DNA from: the human T2T-CHM13v2.0 reference genome, Homo sapiens
Length of the DNA stretch: 64,000 nt
Assembly: GCF_009914755.1 (NCBI RefSeq)
Contig: NC_060927.1
Reading direction: 5' to 3' (one strand)
Positions 8,244-54,550 of the stretch are shown piece after piece (within the stretch, counting starts at the first letter, position 1; each line of letters begins with the position of its first letter). The notes under the pieces were generated by a model, which was not told the origin of the DNA, did no database searches, and saw only the letters and a list, made by a program, of their open reading frames with translations. Both the position numbers and the translations under genes were made by a program.

Positions 8244-10985
8244 CAGAGTTCCCATGTATCCTCTACCCCCACACATGAATAGCCTTTCCCTACCCCCCAT
8301 CAACATGCCCCACCAGTGCACTACATTTGTTACAGTTGATGAACCTATATTGATACATCGTTATAACCCAAAGTCAAAAGTTTGCAGTAGGGTTCACTTC
8401 TAATGTCATATATTCCACAGGTTTTAACAAATGTATAACACGTATTCACCATTATAGTATTATACAGAATAACTGTCCTAAAAATCTTCTTTTCTTCACC
8501 TGTTTATCCTTCCTTCTCCCCTAAATCCTGGCCAACTACTGATCTTTTTACTATCTCCATGGTTTTGTATATTCCAGAATGTCATATAGTGGAATTGTAC
8601 AGTTTGTAGACTTTTCTAACTGGCTTATTTCACTTAGTAATATGAATTTAAGTTTCCTCCATTATCTTTTCTTGATTTGGTGGCTTATTTCTTTTTAGCA
8701 CTGAATAATACTCTATTGTCTAGATACACCACAGTTTATCCATTCACCTACTGTCAGTTATATTGGTTGCTTCCAAGTTTGGGTGACTATTAATAAAGCT
8801 GCTAAAACTATCTTTGTGCAGGCTTTTGTGTAGTCATAAGGTTTAAACTCATTTGACTAAATATCAAGAAGGCAATTGTTGTATCACATGGTAATTGTGT
8901 ATTTAGTTTTCTAAAAAACTGCCAAAATGTCTTACAAAATGTAGCATTTTGCATTCTCACCAGCAATGAATAAGACTTCTTGTTGCTCCACCTTCTCACC
9001 AGTATTTAGTGGTATTAGTGTTCTGAATTTGGCTATTCTAATAAGTGTGTAGTGGTATCTCGTTGTTGTAATTTGCACTTTTCTCCTGACATATGACATT
9101 AAATATATTTTCATATGCTTATTTGCCATCTGTATATGTTCTTTGATGAGCTGTCTGTTCAGATATTTTGCTCATTTTTAATCAGGTTATTCTTTTTATT
9201 GTTGTGTTTTAGGATTTCTCTGTATATTTTGGATAACATTCCTTTATCAGAAATGTCTTTTGCAAAAATTTTCTCCCAGTGTGTAGCTTGTCTTCTCATG
9301 TTCTTGGCAGTGTATTTTGCTGAGCAGAAATGATAAATTTTAGTGACGTTCAACTTATCAACTCTTTCTTTCTTGGATTGTTCCTTTGGTGTTGTATTTA
9401 AAATGTCATTGCCATGGCCAAGGTCATTTAGATAGTCCCCTCTGTTAACTTCTGAAAGTTTTCTAGTTCTTCAATTTACATTTAGGTATAACGCATTTTG
9501 TGTTAGTTTTTGTGAAGGGTGTAAGGTCTGTGTCTAGATCTTTTTTTATCTTGTGGATGTCTAGCTATTCCAGAACCATTTGTTAAAAAGACTATGTATC
9601 CATTGTATTATCTTTATTTCTTTGCCAAAAATCACTTGATTATATTTGTGTGGATCTGTTTCTGTGCTCTCTCTTCTCTTCCATTGCTCTACTTGTCTAC
9701 TTTTTTAAACCAATACAGTTCTGCTTTGATTATTTTAGTTTTATAGTAAGTTTTGAAGTTGGGTCATGTCAGTCTTATAATTTTTGTTCTCCTTTAATAT
9801 CATGTTGGCTATTCTGTCTTTTCTTTCTCCACATATTTGTTAATATCCACAAAATAAATTGCTAGGGTTTTTATTGGGCTTGCATCGAATCCATATATCA
9901 AGTTGGGAAGAACTGATATATTGACAATATCAAGTCTTCTTATCCATGGACATGGGATGTCTTCATTTATTTAGTTATTCTTTGATTTTTAATCAGAGTT
10001 TTGTGTGTTTTATCCACACAGATCTTATACATTTTTTTTACCTTTATTTGTAGGTATGTCACTTTGGAGACGCAGATGTAAATGATATTTTTCTTTTAAT
10101 TTCAGATTCTCCTTTTTTATTGCTTGTATACAGGAAAGCAATTGACTTTTGTAAATTAAGCTTATATCATGCAACCTTGCTATAATAGTTCATTAGTTCT
10201 ATAGTAATTTCTTTTTTTTGTCATTTTCCCCAATTTTCAACATAGAAGATAATGCCATATGCAAGCAAAGACAATTTATTTCTTCCTTCCCAATATATAT
10301 ACTTTTTATTCCCATTTTTTATCTCATTGCATTAGCTATGGTGTTGAAAATGAGTAGGTAAAAGGGGACATTTTTGTTTTGTTCTCAGTCTTAGCGGGAA
10401 AGTTATTTCTTACCAGTACGTATAATGTTAGCTAAAGGCTTTTTATAGGTAATTTTCGTTAAGTTGAAGAAGTTCCCTTTTATTCTTAGCTTGCTTTATC
10501 ATGAATTGGTGTTGGATTTTGTCAAATGTTTTACTACATCTATTAATATGTTCATGTGATTTTTCTTCTTTAGTCTGTTGCTAATGATGTCATGCATTAA
10601 CTGAATTTTGAATATTGAACCAATCTTGCATATCCAGAATAAATTTCATTGTCTTAGTTTATAATTCTTTTTATGTATTGTTTAATTTTATTTGCCAATA
10701 TTTTGTTGAGGACTTTTGCATCTATGTTTATGAGAGACATTGGTCTGTAGTTTTCTCTTCTTGTAATGTCTTTGTCTTGTTTCAATATTAGAGTAATGCT
10801 GGCTTCATAGAATGAATTACAAAGTATTCCCTCTGCCTCTATCTTTTGAAAGATATTGTAGAGAATTGTTATAATTTCTTCCTTAAATATTTAATAGAAT
10901 TAACCAGTGAACCCATATAGGCTGGGAGCTTTCTATTTTGGAAGGCTATCAATTATTGATTTAATTTCTTTAAAAAATACAGGCT
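8243..10985 (-). mobile_element. L1MC-type LINE (3' UTR plus 3' ORF2), 5'-truncated, nested in the older L1M
   Basis: The 3' UTR text cagagttcccatgtatcc...catttgttacagttgatgaacctatattgatacatc resembles L1MC1/2. Minus-strand ORFs give ORF2 C-terminal motifs (MRRQATHWEKIFAKDISDKGMLSKIY; TTTRYHYTLIRIAK). Confidence 0.85.
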
Positions 10986-39703: not shown

Positions 39704-42388
39704 CATATTGGTCCATTTTCACAGTACTATAAAGAACTACCTGAGATTTGGTAATTTATGGAGAAAACAGGTTTAATTGACTCACAATTCTGCAGGCTGT
39801 ACAGGAGGCATGGCTGGGGAGGCCTCAGGAGACTTACAATCACTGCACAAGTCGACAAAGAAGCAAGTATGTCTTCACATGGCTAGCAGGACAGAGAGGG
39901 AGAGAGCGAGTGAGGTGCTACACACTTTCAAACAACAAGATCACATGAGAACTCTATCATGAGACAGCACTAGAGGGATGGTGTTAAACCATTAGAAACC
40001 ACCCCCATTATTCAATCACTTCCCACTAGGCCCCACCTTCAACACTGGGAACTGCAATTCAACATGAGATTTGGGTTGGGACACAGAGCCAAATCATATT
40101 ATTCCACCCCTGGCCCCTCTCAAATCTCATGTTCTTCTCACATTTCAAAACACAGTCATGCCTTCCCAACAGTCCCCCAAAGTCTTAATTTGCTCCAGCA
40201 TCACTTCAAAAGTTCCAGTCTGAAGTCTCATCTGAGAGAAGACAAGTTCCTTTCACCTATGAGCTGTAAAGTTAGAAACAAGTTAGTTACTTCCAATATA
40301 CAATGGTGGCACAGGCATTGTGTAAATGTTACCATTCCAAAAGTGAGACATTGGCCAAATCCAAGGGGCTATGGGCCCTACACAAGTCCAAAATCCAGCA
40401 GGGCATTCATTAAACTTTAAAGCTCTAAAATAATCTCCATTGACTCCATGTCTCACATCCAGGCAACACTGATGCAAGGGGTGGACTCCTAATGCCTTGG
40501 GCAGCTCTTCCCTGGTGGCTCTGCAGGTTACAGCCCCTGCAGCTGCTTTCGCTGGCTGGCATTGAGTACCTGTGGCTTTTCTAGGCACTGGAGGCAAGCT
40601 ATTGGTGGATCTACCATTCTGGGGTCTTGAAGACAGTGGAGGACAGTGGCCCTCTTCTCAGAGGTCCACTAGGCAGTGCTTCAGTGGGGATTCGGTGTGG
40701 AGGCTCTCCAACACCACATTTCCCCTTTGCACTGCCCTAGTAGAGGTTCTCCATGAGGGCTCCACCTCTGCAGCAGATTTCTGCCTGGACATCCAGGCAT
40801 TTCCATACATCCTCTGAAATCTAGATAGAGGCTCCCAAACTTCAATTCTTGCCCTCTGCACACCCTCAGGCTTAACACCCTGTGGAAGCTTCTAAAGCTT
40901 GGGTGTTATACCCTCTGAAGCAGTGGCCCGAGTTGTACCTTGGCCCCTTTTAGTCATGGCTTGAGCTGGAGAAGCTGGGATGCAGGGTGTCATGTCTTGA
41001 GTCTGCATAGAGCAACATGTCCTTGGTTTTGGCCCATTAAACCATTCTTCCCCTGAGGCCTCCAGTCCTGTGATGGGAGGGGCTTCCGTGAAGGCCTCTG
41101 AAATGCCTTGGAGGCATTTTCCCCATTGTCTTGGATTTTAACATTTAGCTCCCCTTTACTTATGCAAATTCCTGCAGTTGATTTGAATTCCTCCCCATAT
41201 AATGTTTTTTTATTTGTTTTTGTTTTTGTTTTTGTTTTCCTACCATGTGGTCAGGCTGCAAATTTTCCAAACATTTACACTCTTCTTCCCTCTTAAATAT
41301 AATTTCAAATTTCAGACCATCTCTTTTCAAATGCATATTAGTATAGCTGTTAGAAGCAGCCAGGTTACTTCTTGAACATTTTGCTGCTTAGATATTTTTT
41401 CCACCAGTTACCCTAAATCAATCTAGTCCAACCTATGGCATGTAGGCTGCATGTAGCCCCAGATGACTTTGAATGTCGCCCAACACAAATTCATAAACTT
41501 TCTTAAAATATTATGAGTTTTTTTGTGATTTTTTTTTTTAGTTCACCAGCTATTGTTAGTGTTAGTATATTTTATGTGTGCCCTAAGACAATTTTTCTTC
41601 TTCCAATGTGGCCCAGGGAAGACAAAAGATTGGATACCCCTGCCCTAAATAATCTCTCTCAAATTCAAAGTTCAACAGATCTCTAGAGCGGGGGCACAAT
41701 GCCACCAGGCTCTTTGCTAAAGCATAGAAAGAGTGATCTTTGCTCCAGTTCCTGATAAGTACCTCATCTTCATTTGAGATCACCTCATTCTGGACTTCAT
41801 CATCCATATCACTATCAGAATTTTGGTCACAACAGTTTAACAAGTCTCTCGGAAGTTCCAAACTTTCCCTCAGCTTCTCTTCTTCTAAGTCCTCCAAACT
41901 GTTCCAACCTCTGCCCATTACCCAGTTACAAAGCTGCTTCCATATTTTTAGTTATCTTTATAGCAATTCCCCACTTCTCTGGTACCAATTTTTTGTATTA
42001 GTCTCACGCTGCTATAAAGAACTACCTGAGGCTGAGTAATTTATGAGAAAATAGGTTTAGTTGACTCACAGTTCCACAGGCTGTACAAAAGTCATGGCTA
42101 TAGAACAGGAAACTTACAATCATAGTAGATGGTGAAGGGGAAGAAAGCATCTCTCCACATGGCTGGCAGGAGAGAGAGAGAGAGAGTGAGTGAAGAAGGA
42201 GGTGCTACACACTTTCCCACAACCAGATATCTTGAGAAATCTATCACGAGACAGCACTAGGGGGATAATGCTAAACCATTAGAAACCACCTCCCTGATCA
42301 AAACACCTTCCATCAGGCCCCAACTCCAACACTGGGAATTACAATTCAACATGAGATTTGGGTGGGGACACAGAGCCAAATCATATTA
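39704..42388 (-). mobile_element. MSTA MaLR provirus: LTR 39704-40101, internal region, LTR 41994-42388
   Basis: Two MSTA-like LTRs share the end acacagagccaaatcatatta; tggtacca junction at 41980; MaLR ORF remnants (GRGWNSLEDLEE...). Confidence 0.92.
41419..41642 (-). mobile_element. MER30 hAT-Charlie MITE inserted in MSTA-int, with 8-bp TSD
   Basis: caatctagtccaacc...aaaagattggatacccctg; CCCTAAAT at 41411-41418 and 41643-41650. Confidence 0.92.
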
Positions 42389-46629: not shown

Positions 46630-49600
46630 TAAAAAAAATTCAAGTATAAAATATGTTATTTATATGTACAAATTATAATCATTCAGGATGACGAATTTTC
46701 ACAAATTGAACATAATCATAAAACTAAAATCCAGATTAAGAAACAGAATACTGCCAGCATTTCAGAATCCAACTTTATCCACTTTTGGTCACTTGCAAAA
46801 ATCAAACAATGCTTCTGTCTTCTAACAACATAGAGGAGTATACTTGTATTGGAAGTTTATATATATGGGATTGTATTAGTCCATTTTCATGCTGCTGATT
46901 AAGACATAGCTGAGACTGGGAAGGAAAAGAGGTTTAATTGGACTTACAGTTCCACATGGCTCGGGAGGGGGGCTCAGAATCATGGCAGGAGGCAAAAGGC
47001 ACTTCTTACATGGTGGCAGCAAGAGAAAATAAGGAAGAAGCAAAAGCGGAAATCCCTGATAAACCTTTCAGATCTCGTGAGACTTATTCACTATCACGAG
47101 AGTAGCATGGAAAAGACCAGCCTCCATGATTCAATTACCTCTACCAACATATGTGAATTCTAGGAGGTACAATTCAAGTTGAGATTTGGGTGGGGACACA
47201 GCCAAACCATATCATTCTGCCCCTGGCCCCTCCCAAATCTCATATTTTCACATTTCAAAACAAATCATGCCTTCCCAACAGTCCCCCAAAGTTTTAACCC
47301 ATTTCAGCATTAACTCAAAAGTCCACAGTCCAAAGTTTCATCTGAGATAAGGCAAGTCCCTTCTGCCTATGAGCCTGTAAAATCAAAAATAAGCTAGTTA
47401 CTTCCTAGATACAATGGGGGTACAGGTATTGGGTAAATACAGCCATTCCAAATGGGAGAAATTGGCCAAAACAAAGAGGTTGCAGGGCCCATGCAAGTCT
47501 GAAATCCAGTGAGGCAGTCAAACTTTAAAGCTCCAAAATGATCTCTTTTGACTCCAGATCTTACATCCAGGTCACACTGATGCAAGAGGTGGGTTCCCAT
47601 GGTCTTGGGCAGCTCCATCCCTGTGGCTTTGCTGGGTATATCCCCCTCCTGGCTGCTTTCACAGGCTGTCATTGAGTGTCTGTGGCTTTTCCAGGTGCAA
47701 GGTGCAAGTTGTCAGTGGATCCACCATTCTGGGATCTGGAGGAAGGTGTCTCTCTTCTCACGGCCCCACTAAGAAGTGCCCCAGTGGGGAATCTGTGTGG
47801 AGGCTCAGACCCCACATTTCCCTTCTGCACTGCCCTAGCAGAGGTTCTCCGTGAGGGCCCTGCTCTTGCAACAAACATTTGCCTGGGCATTGAATTGTTT
47901 CCATAAATCTTCCGAAATCTAGGCGGAGGTTCCCAAACCTCAGTTATTGACTTCTGTTCACTCGCAGGCTCAACAACACGTGCAAGCTACCAAGGCTTGG
48001 GGCTTCCACCCTCTGAAGCCACAGCCCGAGCTGCACATTGACCCCTTTCAGCCTTGGGTAGAGCGACTGGGGCACAGGGCGCCAAGTCCCTAGGCTTCAC
48101 AGAGCATGGGGACCCTGGGCCCAGCACACAAAACTACTTTTTCTTCCTGGGCCTCTGAGCCTGTGATGGGAGAGGCTGCCATGAAGGTCTTTGACGTGGC
48201 CTGGAAACATTTTCCCCATGGTCTTGGAGGTTAATGTTAGCGTCCTTGCTACTTATGCTAATTTCTGCAGCCGGCTTGAATTTCTCTCCAGAAAATGGGT
48301 TTTTCTTTTCTATCGCATTGTCATCCTGCAATTTTTTCAAACTTTTATGCTTCCCTTATAAAACTGAATGCCCTTAACAGTACCCAAGTTACCTCTTGAA
48401 TGCTATGCTGCTTAGAAATTTCTTTTGCCAGATATCCTAAATCATCTTTCTCAAATTCAAAGTTCCACAAATCTCTAGGGCAGGGGCAAAATGCCTTCAG
48501 TCTCTTTGCTAAAACATACCAAGAGTCACCTTTGCTCCAGTTCTGAACAGATTCCTCATCTCCATCTGAGGCCACGTCAGCCTGGACCTTATTGTCCATT
48601 TCGCTATCAACATTTTGGGCAAACCCATTCAACAAGGCTCTAGGAAGTTCCAAACTTTCCCACATTTTCCTGCTTTTTTTTTTTTTTTTTTAATTTTCTG
48701 AGCCCTCCAGACTGTTCCAATGTCTGCCTGTTACCTAGTTCCAGAGTCGCTTCCACATTTTTGGATGTCTTTTCATCAACACCCCATTCTATTATTCTGT
48801 TTTCACACTGCTGATAAAGACATACCCAAGACTGGGAAGAAAAAGTTCAATTGGACTTACAGTTTCACATGGCTGGGGAGGCCTCAGAATCATGGTGGGA
48901 GGTAAAAGGCACTTTTTACATGGCAGCCACAAGAGAAAATGAGGAAGAAGCGAAAGCAGAAACCCTTGATAAACCCATCAGATCTCGTGAGACTTATTCA
49001 CTATCACAAAAATAGCACAGGAAAGAACAGCCCCCATGATTCAATTACGTCCCCCTGGGTCCCTCCCACAACATGTGGAAATTCTGGGAAATACACTTCA
49101 AGTTGAGATTTGGTTGGGGACACAGCCATACCATTTAAGGGATCAAATAATGTGAACTATTTTCTGTATAGCTTGTTTCATTCAACATTTATTATTTGTG
49201 ATTTTTACATATTATTGCACTATTCATTCCCATTGTTGCACAGTATTCCATTGTGATAAAATATTTCACTTTACCATCTTACTATTGTTCTTGCTTATGA
49301 ATAGTATTGCTATGAATATTTTAGTGTATTTCTTTATATATATATGTATACATTTTTATTTGTTACATGCTTAGGAGTAGAATTGCTAGATTCTAGGATA
49401 TGTTTATGTTCAGCTACAGTAGATAGCATTACCAACATTTTAAAGTGATTGCACAGAGTTGTACTCTGATAACTACTATAAGAGAATTCTGTCTGTGCCA
49501 TGTCCCTTGTTATTTTTTGCCTTTTGTGTTTAATGCAGTAGTAATAATACATTGTGGTTTAATTTGCATCTCCCTGATGATCAATGATGCTGAGCATATT

Positions 49601-51310: not shown

Positions 51311-51810
51311 ACACTAGAATTCAGCAAATTTAATCATTATAGTTCTAGCCTATTAACACACTGGATTACAGAAAGTTGGTTGGTATTAATAGTCCTGCTT
51401 CCTTCATTTATTTGACAAGTTTAATTTTCTACCGCTTTCTGTGAATTCTATATTTTTAAAATAGATTCACCGTAAAGAGTGGCTAAGAAAATTCTAACAT
51501 TTCTCATTTTATATTTTTAATTAATGATAGACTTAGATAGACTTTTTTGTATTTTGCCCCAAGCCGATTATTGACATATATATTTTTCACACATCCAATT
51601 ATATATTTAGATATGGATGATACTATTCCAGGATATATTTATCTTCTTGTTTTCCTATTTATCATTTTTTCATTAGTCAGCTGCCTTTATTTCTATGTCT
51701 CCAAAACAATTTGTTTTCACCTGAGTCTCTTGTGTATCTAGTGTATTCCTTTTCTTATTGTTGAGTTTTAGTATATTTTGGATAACATTTTTTTTATATC
51801 AGATATGCCT

Positions 51811-53751
51811 TGTATTAGTCTATTTTCATGCTGCTGATAAAGACATACCTGAGACTGGGAAGAAAAAGAAGTTTAATGGACTTACAGTTCCACATGGCTG
51901 GGGAGGCCTCACAATCATGGCAGAAGGCAAGGAGGAGCAAGTCACATCTTACATGGATGGCGGCAGGCAAAGAGAGAGAGTTTGTGTGGGGAAACTCCCT
52001 TTTTAAAAACCACCTGAACTCATGAGACTTATTCACTATCATGAGAACAGCATGGGAAAGACTGGACTCATATTCAATTACCTCCCACCAGCTTCTTCCC
52101 CTGGAATGTGGGAATTGTGAGAGTTACAATTTAAGATGAGATTTGCGTGTGGACACAGCCAAACCATATCATTCTGCTCTTGGCCCCTCTTAAATCTCAT
52201 GTCCTCACATTTCAAAACCAATCATGCCTTACCAACAATCCCCCAATGTCTCAACTTATTTCAGCATTACCTCAAAAGTCCACAGGCCAAAGCCTCATCC
52301 AAGAAAACTCAAGTCCCTTATACCTATGTGCATGTAAAATCAAAAACAAGGTAGTTTTTTCCTAGTTACAATGGGGGTACAGACATTTAGTAAACACAAC
52401 CATTCCAAATGGGAGAAACTGGCTAAAACAAAGGGGCTACAGGCCCCATGGAAGTCCAAAATCCCATGGGGCAGTCACATCTTAAAGTTCTAAAATCATC
52501 TCTTTTGACTCCATGTCTCACATCCAGGTCACACTGATGCAAAAGGTGTGCTCCCATGGTCTTGGGCAGCTCTGCCCCTGTGGCTTTGCAGGGTATAGCC
52601 CCCCTCCTGACTGCTTTCATGGGCTGGTGTTGAGTGTCTGTGGCTTTTCCAGGTGCATGGTGCAAGCTGCTGGTGGATCTACCATTCTGGGGTCTGCAGG
52701 ATGGTGGTCCTCCTCTCACAGCTCCACTAGGTGGTGCCCCAGTAGAGACTCTGTGTGGGGGCTCCTGCCCTACATTTCCCTTCTGCACTTCCCTAGCAGA
52801 GATTCTTCACGAGAGCCCCCACCCCTGCAGCAAACTTCTGCCTGGGCATCCAGGCGTTTCCATACATCCTCTGAAATCTAGGCAGAGGTCCCCAAACCTC
52901 AACTCTTGACTTTCATGCACCCACAGGCTCAGCACCATGTGGAAGCTGCCAAGGGTTGGGGTTTCCACCCTCTGAAGCAACAGCCCGAGCCACACCTTGG
53001 CCCCTTTTAGCCATGGCTGGAGTGACTGGAATGCAGAGTACCAAGTCCCTAGGCTTCACAGAACAGGGGATCCCTGGGCCCGGCCCATGAAACCATCTTT
53101 TCCTCCTAGGCCTCTGTGCCTGTGATGGAAGGGGCTGCAGTGAAGACCTCTGACATGCCCTGGAGACATTTTCCCCATTGTCTTGGAGATTAACATTCGA
53201 GTCCTCATTACTGATGCAAATTTCTGCAGCAGGCTTGAATTTCCCCTCAGAAAATGAGATTTTCTTTTCTATTGCATTGTTAGGCTGCAAATTTTCAGAA
53301 CTTTTATGCTCTGTTTCCCTTTTAAAACTAAATGCTTTTAACAGGATCCAAATGACCTCTTAAATGCTTTGCTGCTTAGAAATTTCTTCCACCAGATATC
53401 CTAAATCATCTCTCTCAAGTTCAAAGTTCCACAAATCTTTAGGGGAGGGGCAAAATACCACCAGTCTCTTTGCTAAAACATAACAAGAGTCCAATTCTTT
53501 GCTCCAATTCCCAAGAAGTTCCTTATCTCCATCTGAGACTACCTCAGCCTGGATTTCATTGTCCATATCATTATCAGCATTTTGATCAAAACCATTCAAC
53601 AAGACTCTAGGGAGTTCTAAACTGTCCCACATTTTCCTGTCTTCTGAGCCCTCCAAACTGTTCCAACCTCTGCCTGTTACCCAGTTCCAAATTTGCTTCC
53701 ACATTTTCAAGTAACTTTTCAGTAGTGCCCCACTCTAATGGTACCAATACC
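51811..53751 (-). mobile_element. THE1B-like 3' LTR (51811-52171) plus complete THE1 internal region (52172-53751)
   Basis: The LTR resembles 46872-47214; the internal region is colinear with 47215-48790; MaLR ORF remnants at 53360..53710 and 52913..53290. Confidence 0.94.
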
Positions 53752-54499
53752 TGTATTAATCAGGGTTCTCTGTAGGGACAGAATTAATAAGATAGATGTA
53801 TATATAAAGGGGAGTTTATTAAGTAGAATTTTTTTTTTGAGATGAGGTCTGACTCTGTTGCCCAGGCTGGAGTGCAGTGGTGCAGTCTCAGCTCACTGCA
53901 ACCCCTGTCTCCTGGGTTCAAGCAATTCTCTTCCTCAGCCTCTCGAGTAGCTGGGACTACAGACATGCACCATCATGCCTGGCTAATTTTTGTATTTTTA
54001 GTAGAGACAGGGTTTCACCATGTTGGCAAGGCTGGTCTCAAACTCCTGACCTCGTGATCTGCCCGCCTCAGCCTCCCAAAGTGCTGGGATTACAGGTGTG
54101 AGCCACCGTGCTTGGCCTATTAAGTAGTATTAACTCACACTATCACAAGGTCCCACAATAGACCATCTGCAAGCTGAGGATCGGGGAAGCCATTCTGAGT
54201 CCCAAAGCTGAAGAATTTGGAGTTTGATGTTTGAGGGCAGGAAGCATCCAGCATGGGAGAAAGATGTAGGCTGGGAGGCTAGGCCAGTCTAGTCTTTACC
54301 TGTTTTTCTGTCTGCTTTTTTTCTGGCCATGCTCACAGCTGATTAGATTGTGCCCACCCATATTAAGGTTGGGTCTGCCTTTCCCAGCCCACTGATTCAA
54401 ATGTTAATCTCCTTTGGCAACACCTTCACAGACACACCCGGGATCAGTACTTCGCATCCTTCAATCCAATCAAGTTGACACTCAGTATTAACCATCACA
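53752..54499 (-). mobile_element. MLT2A-type (HERV-L) LTR in the 5' LTR position of the THE1 element, interrupted by an Alu
   Basis: tgtattaatcagggttctctgtagggacagaa...gcatccagcatgggagaaagatgtaggctgggaggc...caatccaatcaagttgacactcagtattaaccatcaca; no similarity to THE1 LTRs beyond the termini. Confidence 0.9.
53829..54117 (-). mobile_element. AluS (Sg-like) inserted in the MLT2A LTR
   Basis: Full dimer; TSD TATTAAGTAG at 53817-53826 and 54118-54127. Confidence 0.94.
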
Positions 54500-54550
54500 T
54501 GCCTTTTTCAAGTATTTTCTTTCAGTCTGTGACTTGTCTTCTCATTCTTT

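What the first reader, a model, noticed from the sequence alone, without database searches (positions are those of the whole stretch)
51806..54504. Provirus with two different LTRs: THE1 body and 3' LTR, HERV-L (MLT2A) 5' LTR, one shared TSD
Seen in sequence, on the minus strand: MLT2A-type LTR (54499-53752), complete THE1 internal region, THE1 LTR (52171-51811). TGCCT lies directly outside both ends (51806-51810 and 54500-54504). Removing the element restores a contiguous host L1 (...atcagata-tgcct-tttcaagtattttct...), colinear with 9245-9300 in this window. The switch is at the LTR/primer-binding-site junction: TGGTACCA at 53739-53746, with a 5-nt spacer to the LTR versus 6 nt in the MSTA at 41980-41993. 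Established: normal reverse transcription gives identical LTRs; MaLRs lack pol and are thought to be mobilised by ERV-L; both make 5-bp TSDs. Inference: plus-strand strong-stop DNA from a co-packaged HERV-L genome transferred onto a THE1 minus strand through the shared PBS-region sequence, and the hybrid integrated once. That would be fossil evidence of MaLR/ERV-L co-packaging and would put the THE1 ORF under an MLT2A promoter. I cannot tell from here whether such chimeras are already catalogued.
Basis: partly seen in the sequence, partly recalled or inferred. Interest (0 to 1): 0.85.

Follow-up and report, generated by a model that had tools for sequence, protein, structure and literature searches.

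The report
Old provirus with two unlike LTRs
A roughly 40-million-year-old THE1 retroelement carries an ERV-L repeat at its front end inside a single insertion scar, and at least four other copies in this genome are built the same way, which suggests the two elements were reverse-transcribed together.

Summary
On the minus strand, 51811-54499 is one element. It has an ERV-L-type (MLT2-group) 5' LTR split by an Alu, a THE1-like body and a THE1-like 3' LTR. The same five host bases abut both ends, and the two flanks join up, with exactly 5 bp of overlap, on another L1 copy in the window. The two LTRs are unrelated.

It is not a one-off. A junction search found four more loci with the same architecture, each with its own flank repeat. 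A sixth locus has ERV-L LTRs at both ends around a THE1 body and a dUTPase-bearing ERV-L pol remnant. The chimeras are no closer to each other than to ordinary THE1 or ERV-L copies, so they arose separately. Five of six junctions keep the ERV-L-type spacer between LTR and primer-binding site.

The best reading is an intermolecular plus-strand strong-stop transfer between ERV-L and THE1 DNA in one particle. This is inferred, not shown. Age is roughly 35-45 My. The element has no pol or env, and its internal ORF is broken. Ten paper searches found no report of such chimeras, but the older key papers were not held.

The parts
54500..54504 (.). Upstream copy of the 5-bp target-site duplication (host L1 sequence)
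   Evidence: It is identical to 51806-51810. It corresponds to 9254-9258 of the L1 copy at 9193-9299.
53752..54499 (-). 5' LTR of ERV-L (MLT2-group) type, short length class, complete from first to last base, interrupted by an Alu
   Evidence: One search shows the termini. In one search it had no match to the MaLR LTRs of the window. Searches show it is colinear with kin LTRs. One search gives 78-90% identity to 11 kin LTRs, including the ordinary ERV-L junction loci L016-L020.
53830..54117 (-). Alu nested in the 5' LTR, with its own direct repeat of about 12 bases. It is a later insertion.
   Evidence: Kin LTR alignments break at 54118 and resume at about 53830. Four CpG remain in 247 bases.
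53729..53751 (-). 5-base spacer plus primer-binding-site region. This is where ERV-L-like sequence gives way to THE1-like sequence.
   Evidence: The spacer type is that of the ordinary ERV-L junctions L016-L020. The sequence after the first 8 bases of the primer-binding site is that of the ordinary THE1 copies L006-L010.
52172..53751 (-). THE1-like internal region, given as the whole body in one part. It has no pol or env, and its ORF is broken by at least 2 in-frame stops and 1 frame change.
   Evidence: 81% to 47215-48761; 86-89% to ordinary THE1 copies over the first 590 bases. Pfam found nothing for 4 open pieces. Searches cover the ORF pieces.
51811..52171 (-). 3' LTR of THE1 type, complete
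   Evidence: One search gives 79-86% to the 5' LTRs of the ordinary THE1 copies L006-L010 and 76% to the MST-like element of the window.
51806..51810 (.). Downstream copy of the 5-bp target-site duplication (host L1 sequence)
51752..51805 (.). Host L1 flank, colinear with 9193-9253
54505..54545 (.). Host L1 flank, colinear with 9259-9299

Best explanation
The element is a recombinant cDNA that was made before integration and was inserted once by an integrase.

Shown:
- It has a complete ERV-L-type LTR and ERV-L-type spacer at the 5' end, a THE1 body and a complete THE1 LTR at the 3' end.
- It has one 5-bp duplication in a contiguous L1.
- The same architecture occurs at four or more other, independent loci.

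Inferred: an ERV-L RNA and a THE1 RNA were in the same particle, and both were primed at primer-binding sites that share their first bases. The ERV-L template yielded plus-strand strong-stop DNA (U3-R-U5, the spacer and a copy of the primer's end). That DNA annealed to the primer-binding-site end of the THE1 minus strand instead of to its own minus strand. Extension of both strands then gave an ERV-L LTR on the left and the THE1 LTR on the right.

Only such an intermolecular second transfer, or an equivalent DNA-level join at the same place, gives two complete but unlike LTRs. A switch during minus-strand synthesis gives two identical LTRs.

Because the architecture cannot be inherited through a normal replication cycle, each copy is a separate event. 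The class is therefore a fossil trace of THE1 being reverse-transcribed alongside ERV-L.
For: 1. Single integration is shown by the 5/5 flank repeat and by flanks that meet with exactly 5 bp of overlap on another L1 copy.

2. The two LTRs are unrelated (where 121 of 200 shuffles reach the score). They therefore share no detectable R homology that could have guided a minus-strand (first) transfer between the two genomes.

3. The architecture recurs. In one search, 40 of 2357 candidates were scored, and 5 of the 39 non-self matches span the junction. Four of them (L011-L014) have the ERV-L-type 5' LTR, a THE1-like body and a THE1-like 3' LTR, colinear to the last base.

4. Each of the four has its own flank repeat and unrelated flanks: 5/5 in L013, 5/5 or 6/6 in L011 depending on how the last LTR base is read, and 4/5 in L012 and L014.

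5. There is no chimera lineage. The THE1 parts of the chimeras are 83-88% identical to the window element, against 86-89% for ordinary THE1 copies. For the 5' LTRs, the means are 81.8% chimera to chimera, 82.4% chimera to ordinary ERV-L and 82.5% ordinary to ordinary. Both LTR length classes occur among the chimeras.

6. The spacer that must travel with U5 in strong-stop DNA is of the ERV-L type (5 bases) in 5 of 6 chimeric junctions. The five ordinary THE1 junctions all have a 6-base type, and the five ordinary ERV-L junctions the 5-base type.

7. By eye, the primer-binding site has the THE1-like length variant in 3 of 6 chimeras and the ERV-L-like one in 3 of 6. A mismatched duplex resolved either way would look like this.

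8. L015 is a different recombinant of the same two parents. It has ERV-L LTRs at both ends (85% alike, 4/5 flank repeat). Inside are the same junction, a THE1 body, the first ~155 bases of a THE1 LTR and 1.7 kb holding a dUTPase-like piece (PF00692, E 2.6e-4). Nearly all HERV-L have a dUTPase at the end of Pol (PMC4724089, passage).

9. The standard model uses primer-binding-site complementarity for the second transfer and yields identical LTRs (PMC3187697 and PMC6894440, passages).
Against: 1. Ascertainment: both genome searches used this element's own junction as the query, so the clustering of switches at the primer-binding site is built in. Only the nature of the 3' ends was free to vary.

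3. L012 carries the THE1-type spacer behind an ERV-L LTR. The simplest form of the model does not predict this. It needs the switch to lie in the ~10 terminal LTR bases that the two families share.

4. The second transfer is generally described as intramolecular (PMC5086612, passage).

5. Beyond their first 8-9 bases the ordinary THE1 and ERV-L primer-binding sites differ, so the annealing stretch is short.

6. The dUTPase match (21.2 bits) is just under Pfam's cut-off of 22. I did not fetch the bodies of L016-L020, so calling them 'ordinary ERV-L' rests on their shared non-THE1 leader alone.

Confidence: 0.6

Rival explanations
1. The join was made at the DNA level before integration. Two separate cDNAs, one ERV-L and one THE1, finished or part-finished, were joined by the cell's or the particle's recombination or end-joining at the short shared stretch around the primer-binding site. 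The product was then integrated. Co-presence in one cell would be enough, and co-packaging would not be needed.
For: The product would be identical: one flank repeat and unlike complete LTRs. The two families share about 10 bases at the LTR end and 8-9 at the start of the primer-binding site, which could serve as microhomology. The L012 junction lies in the LTR-end stretch rather than in the primer-binding site.
Against: It needs a break or end at the same few bases in at least six independent events. Plus-strand strong-stop DNA is the one natural intermediate that ends exactly there. No chimeras joined elsewhere are known, but my searches could not have found them.
Confidence: 0.2
2. The chimeras are a small copying lineage: one founder chimera was itself copied several times while keeping its two unlike LTRs.
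For: Five loci share one architecture. The window element and L013 have the most similar 5' LTRs, at 90%.
Against: Retroviral replication rebuilds both LTRs from one U3, R and U5, so unlike LTRs are not inherited (PMC3187697 and PMC6894440, passages). The chimeras are no closer to each other than to ordinary copies in the LTR or the body. They use two LTR length classes and two primer-binding-site variants.
Confidence: 0.05
3. The change came after integration. An ordinary THE1 provirus had its 5' LTR replaced by gene conversion or ectopic recombination with an ERV-L. Alternatively, an ERV-L LTR and a truncated THE1 lie side by side through nested insertion and deletion.
For: Ectopic exchange between repeats is common. 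ERV-L and THE1 share a short stretch at the primer-binding site.
Against: Ectopic exchange or two insertions would leave unlike flanks. Here the flank repeat is 5/5 and the L1 target is contiguous, and four further loci have matching flank repeats of their own. Conversion needs homology on the left side too, and the LTRs share none. The replacement would have to start at exactly the first LTR base at five loci.
Confidence: 0.03

Closest known systems
HERV-L / ERV-L provirus (MLT2-group LTRs, tRNA-Leu-type primer-binding site, gag-pol with a terminal dUTPase, no env)
   Same: The 5' LTR, from first to last base, and the 5-base spacer are of this kind. The 5-bp duplication also fits.
   Different: After the first 8-9 bases of the primer-binding site, the body and the 3' LTR are THE1. 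There is no pol.
THE1 (MaLR) non-autonomous LTR element
   Same: The body and 3' LTR are colinear with ordinary copies, at 86-89% and 79-86% identity. The 5-bp duplication fits. No pol or env is present.
   Different: The 5' LTR and spacer are not THE1.
Mosaic or recombinant HERVs made by template switching between co-packaged genomes (PMC4724089, passages; PMC6894440 and PMC3187697, passages)
   Same: Two parental elements are combined in one integrated copy. L015 fits this classical type.
   Different: Classical copy-choice recombinants have two identical LTRs. Here the LTRs belong to different families, which points to the second (plus-strand) transfer rather than to minus-strand switching. 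PMC4724089 states that a thorough analysis of MaLR was outside its scope.
'LTR swapping' between an autonomous and a non-autonomous LTR retrotransposon partner in soybean (Du et al. 2010). I saw the title only, in the reference list of PMC6894440. The paper was not held.
   Same: Judging by its title, an exchange of LTRs between a helper and its dependent element.
   Different: It was not read, so the mechanism and architecture cannot be compared.

Membership tests
ERV-L (HERV-L) LTR, MLT2 group: the 5' LTR | Full-length colinear similarity to LTRs that stand in front of the ordinary ERV-L junction | tested here: met
   80-87% to L016-L020 over 283-379 aligned bases. Colinear from the first base to the LTR end.
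ERV-L (HERV-L) LTR, MLT2 group: the 5' LTR | Kin LTRs enclose an ERV-L pol (dUTPase at the end of Pol) | tested here: inconclusive
   The LTR pair of L015 (83-85% to the window LTR) encloses a 70-aa open piece that matches PF00692 at E 2.6e-4 and 21.2 bits, against a cut-off of 22. This is one locus. The bodies of L016-L020 were not fetched.
ERV-L (HERV-L) LTR, MLT2 group: the 5' LTR | ERV-L-type spacer between the LTR end and the primer-binding site | tested here: met
   A 5-base spacer one change away from the type seen in 5 of 5 ordinary ERV-L junctions. The 5 ordinary THE1 junctions have a 6-base type.
ERV-L (HERV-L) LTR, MLT2 group: the 5' LTR | Assignment to subfamily MLT2A1/A2 by a repeat library (Dfam/RepeatMasker) | not testable with these tools
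No repeat library was on hand. A length of about 448 bases is close to the 453 given for MLT2A2 in PMC11319637 (read).
THE1 (MaLR): body and 3' LTR | An LTR of about 350-360 bases and a body of about 1.6 kb, colinear with many genomic copies that have such LTRs at both ends | tested here: met
   In one search, 33 of the 39 non-self matches are ordinary junctions of this kind. Five of them (L006-L010) were examined.
THE1 (MaLR): body and 3' LTR | No pol or env in the body | tested here: met
   Pfam found no family above E 0.05 in four open pieces of 62-125 aa. A body of 1.58 kb is too short for pol.
THE1 (MaLR): body and 3' LTR | THE1 rather than MST or another MaLR subfamily, by a repeat library | not testable with these tools
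   Only relative evidence is available. The LTR is 79-86% identical to L006-L010 and 76% to the MST-like element at about 39706-42386. The body start is 86-89% against 80%.
Product of an intermolecular plus-strand strong-stop transfer | Two complete LTRs of different families within one target-site duplication | tested here: met
   The same holds at L011-L014.
Product of an intermolecular plus-strand strong-stop transfer | The switch lies in the primer-binding site, with the U5-side spacer from the LTR donor | tested here: met
   True for the window element and for 5 of 6 chimeric junctions overall. L012 is the exception. The search design favoured such junctions.
Product of an intermolecular plus-strand strong-stop transfer | The reciprocal product exists (THE1 5' LTR on an ERV-L body) | not tested
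Product of an intermolecular plus-strand strong-stop transfer | The same architecture in all orthologues, and an empty site in older outgroups | not testable with these tools
   No other primate genomes were on hand.

The most novel reading that the evidence does not exclude
ERV-L and THE1 genomes were regularly packaged and reverse-transcribed together. Hetero-LTR chimeras (ERV-L LTR, THE1 body, THE1 LTR) would then be a recurrent and so far uncatalogued by-product, found across the simian genome. They would give a countable fossil record of helper-dependent co-packaging and of intermolecular second-strand transfer. They would also have placed ERV-L promoters in front of THE1 bodies repeatedly.
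Probability: 0.4. Interest if true: 0.75.

Novelty: new variant of a known kind. Interest (0 to 1): 0.66.

Why it matters
The papers I read state that MaLRs such as THE1 were moved by ERV-L proteins (PMC11319637, read; PMC5538554, passages). In what I could read, that view rests on resemblance and timing. A provirus with one LTR from each family inside one insertion scar, recurring independently, is structural evidence that their replication intermediates met. If the strand-transfer reading is right, they met inside one particle.

This turns the helper question into a counting exercise on existing genomes. One can ask how many such chimeras exist, which subfamily pairs they combine, which end is foreign, and whether reciprocals exist.

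It also matters for annotation. Such elements look like an unrelated solo LTR lying next to a THE1 that lacks its 5' LTR. Dating a provirus by LTR-LTR divergence fails for them.

Tried and rejected
Pfam on four open pieces of the internal region gave nothing usable. The best match was an unrelated DUF at E 0.055. Here I could therefore neither confirm nor reject the gag relationship stated in PMC11359688 (passage).

The idea that the four spanning loci might be ordinary ERV-L proviruses with a leader resembling THE1 was rejected. Their bodies are colinear with THE1 through to a THE1 3' LTR, and the ordinary ERV-L junctions diverge from THE1 after 8 bases of the primer-binding site.

L019 and L020, picked as possible further chimeras because their matches ran past the primer-binding-site start, turned out not to have a THE1-like leader.

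Segmental duplication was rejected because the flanks of the five loci are unrelated.

Dating by LTR-LTR divergence is impossible for this element. I used the L015 pair (85.4%, about 37 My), the THE1-like neighbour (85.2%, about 37 My) and the MST-like neighbour (82.4%, about 45 My) at an assumed 2.2e-9 per site per year. I also used the star-like 85-90% identity among THE1 copies, the decayed nested Alu and published ranges (PMC11359688 passages; PMC11319637 read).

Ten paper searches gave no report of ERV-L/THE1 two-LTR chimeras. Smit 1993, Benit 1999 and Du 2010 were not held. Supplements are closed, so the tables of PMC4724089 and PMC11319637 may list such loci without my seeing them.

I did not use the protein word search, the Atlas or any fold tool.
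Full report
What is there. Read on the minus strand, 54499-53752 is an LTR that starts and ends with the usual terminal dinucleotides. A 5-base spacer and a primer-binding site follow. Then come about 1.58 kb of body (to 52172) and a second, different LTR (52171-51811).

The same five host bases lie directly outside both ends, at 51806-51810 and 54500-54504. In one search the left flank (51752-51810) aligned to 9193-9258 of another L1 copy in the window, and the right flank (54500-54545) aligned to 9254-9299. The two alignments overlap by exactly five bases. The element therefore entered a contiguous L1 in one integration that duplicated 5 bp.

An Alu with its own direct repeat of about 12 bases sits in the 5' LTR at 53830-54117. 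My first bounds for it were wrong, and as a result my two genome queries began with 23 bases of Alu tail.

The two LTRs are unrelated. The left 388 bases of the 5' LTR matched nothing else in the window at E <= 1e-3. The 3' LTR matched the LTRs of two other full-length MaLR proviruses in the window, and the body matched one of them at 81% over 1557 columns. A direct local alignment of the two LTRs scored no better than shuffles: 121 of 200 reached the score for the left piece and 188 of 200 for the right piece. The only shared stretch is the last ~10 bases.

It is not unique. A search of the whole reference with a 191-base junction query scored 40 of 2357 candidates. These were the locus itself, 33 matches that begin near the LTR end (ordinary THE1 junctions), one match covering the LTR, the spacer and the first 8 bases of the primer-binding site, and five matches spanning the junction.

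I cut the five spanning loci. Four of them (L011 on C7, L012 on C17, L013 on C21, L014 on C2) are colinear with the window element. The match runs from the first base of the ERV-L-type LTR, through the THE1-like body, to the last base of a THE1-like 3' LTR. Their flanks are unrelated, and each has its own flank repeat. It is 5/5 in L013. In L011 it is 5/5 or 6/6, depending on how the last LTR base is read. In L012 and L014 it is 4/5, and the L012 reading assumes two changed bases at the LTR start. The chance of at least 4/5 at fixed places is about 0.016 per locus.

The sixth locus. L015 (C3, 147.25 Mb) has ERV-L-type LTRs at both ends, 85% alike, with a 4/5 flank repeat. Between them lie the same junction, a THE1-like body, the first ~155 bases of a THE1 LTR, and 1.7 kb with no match in the window. 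One 70-aa open piece in that stretch matches the dUTPase family (PF00692, E 2.6e-4, 21.2 bits, cut-off 22). The other seven pieces tested gave nothing relevant.

Nearly all HERV-L carry a dUTPase at the end of Pol (PMC4724089, passage). This ties the LTR type to ERV-L, though on one locus and one sub-threshold match. L015 also looks like a classical copy-choice recombinant of the same two parents. A nested insertion followed by deletion is not excluded for it.

Independent events, not a lineage. Over the first ~590 bases of the body, the window element is 86-89% identical to five ordinary THE1 copies (L006-L010) and 83-88% to the other chimeras. The ordinary copies are 85-90% identical to each other. 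For the 5' LTR, the mean identity is 81.8% among chimeras, 82.4% between chimeras and ordinary ERV-L junction loci, and 82.5% among the latter. A short and a long LTR class (about 95 bases of difference) both occur among chimeras and among ordinary loci. PMC11319637 (read) describes MLT2 subfamilies of 453 to 554 bases.

Where the switch lies. A second search with more LTR and less body scored 40 of 1643 candidates. These were the locus itself, 21 matches ending at the LTR end, and 18 running into the primer-binding site. Of the 18, two are the L012 and L013 places, five were cut narrowly (L016-L020), and 11 were not examined.

L016, L017, L018 and L020 share one leader that departs from THE1 after the first 8 bases of the primer-binding site. 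L019 has another non-THE1 leader. All five have a 5-base spacer of one type. The five ordinary THE1 junctions have a 6-base spacer of another type, identical in four and one change away in the fifth.

Of the six chimeric junctions, five (the window, L011, L013, L014, L015) have the ERV-L-type spacer and one (L012) has the THE1-type. After the shared first bases of the primer-binding site, three have the THE1 length variant and three the ERV-L one. This was read by eye. Both searches used this element's own junction as the query, so junctions elsewhere in the body could not have been found.

Mechanism. In the standard scheme, plus-strand strong-stop DNA carries U3, R, U5, the spacer and a copy of the primer's end. 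It anneals to the primer-binding-site end of the minus strand, and both LTRs come out identical (PMC3187697 and PMC6894440, passages). Switching between co-packaged RNAs during minus-strand synthesis changes the body or mixes U3 with R-U5, but it still gives two identical LTRs.

Two complete, unlike LTRs need the strong-stop DNA of one genome to land on the minus strand of the other, or an equivalent DNA join at the same spot. The ERV-L-type spacer in five of six junctions is what strand transfer predicts. The mixed primer-binding-site variants would fit a mismatched duplex resolved either way. The architecture cannot be passed on through a further replication cycle, which agrees with the star-like identities.

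I put 0.6 on this reading, 0.2 on a DNA-level join before integration, 0.05 on a copying lineage and 0.03 on post-integration replacement.

Several things count against the leading reading:
- the search bias described above;
- the untested reciprocal product;
- the L012 spacer;
- the short shared stretch of the two primer-binding sites;
- the textbook view that the second transfer is intramolecular (PMC5086612, passage).

Age and family. The element has no pol and no env. Its internal ORF is split into at least four open pieces in two frames, with at least two in-frame stops and one frame change. A review cites a 464-aa ORF in one THE1D copy (PMC11359688, passage).

The L015 LTR pair (85.4%) and the neighbouring THE1-like provirus (85.2%) give about 37 My, and the MST-like neighbour (82.4%) about 45 My, at an assumed 2.2e-9 per site per year. 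The nested Alu keeps 4 CpG in 247 bases.

Published ranges agree. HERV-L waves in simians lasted until about 40-30 Mya, and THE1 is simian-specific (PMC11359688, passages). Most MLT2A2/B3-group copies were inserted between the tarsier split and the simian ancestor (PMC11319637, read). I estimate about 35-45 My, with 30-55 My as outer limits. The element is old, degraded and unlike any virus of people or livestock, so nothing here called for a stop.

Is it known? Ten full-text searches found no description of ERV-L/THE1 proviruses with unlike LTRs. PMC11319637 treats hybrid MLT2 LTRs only. PMC4724089 reports common mosaic HERVs but leaves MaLR aside, and it mentions one MaLR chain with an ERV-L-Pol-like piece (passages). 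PMC5538554 has no occurrence of 'chimeric', 'hybrid' or 'recombination'.

The founding papers on MaLR and ERV-L were not held, and supplements are closed. Standard repeat annotation would show these loci to anyone who looked. Absence from my searches is therefore weak evidence of novelty.

Noticed in passing
window 46872-49134 and about 39706-42386 (both minus strand): Two more full-length MaLR proviruses lie within 12 kb of the finding, in the same orientation. One is THE1-like, with its LTR pair 85.2% alike, a 5/5 flank repeat, and about 14 bases missing at the LTR/primer-binding-site junction. The other is MST-like, with its LTR pair 82.4% alike. That makes three full-length MaLRs in one orientation within 15 kb.
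   Followed up: partly
L015 (G000:C3:147250500-147256000): This element has ERV-L-type LTRs at both ends. Inside are a THE1 body, part of a THE1 LTR and a dUTPase-like ERV-L pol remnant, with a 4/5 flank repeat. It looks like a copy-choice recombinant of the same two parents.
   Followed up: partly
L012 (G000:C17:34901000-34906600), LTR/primer-binding-site junction: This is the one chimera with the THE1-type 6-base spacer behind an ERV-L LTR. Its switch must lie in the ~10 terminal LTR bases that the two families share.
   Followed up: no
L006-L010 versus L016-L020, primer-binding sites: Ordinary THE1 and ordinary ERV-L copies keep different sequences after the first 8-9 bases of the primer-binding site. 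If both used the same tRNA primer, copying of the primer's end in each cycle should make them alike. A different primer variant for THE1 is one possibility.
   Followed up: no
one search matches G000:C23:91177981-91178072 and G000:C24:5524430-5524521: Matches with equal score and extent on the two sex chromosomes. They are probably one ERV-L locus in sequence shared by X and Y.
   Followed up: no
window 53830-54117: An Alu nested in the 5' LTR on the same strand, with a direct repeat of about 12 bases and only 4 CpG left in 247 bases. It gives a minimum age for the element.
   Followed up: partly
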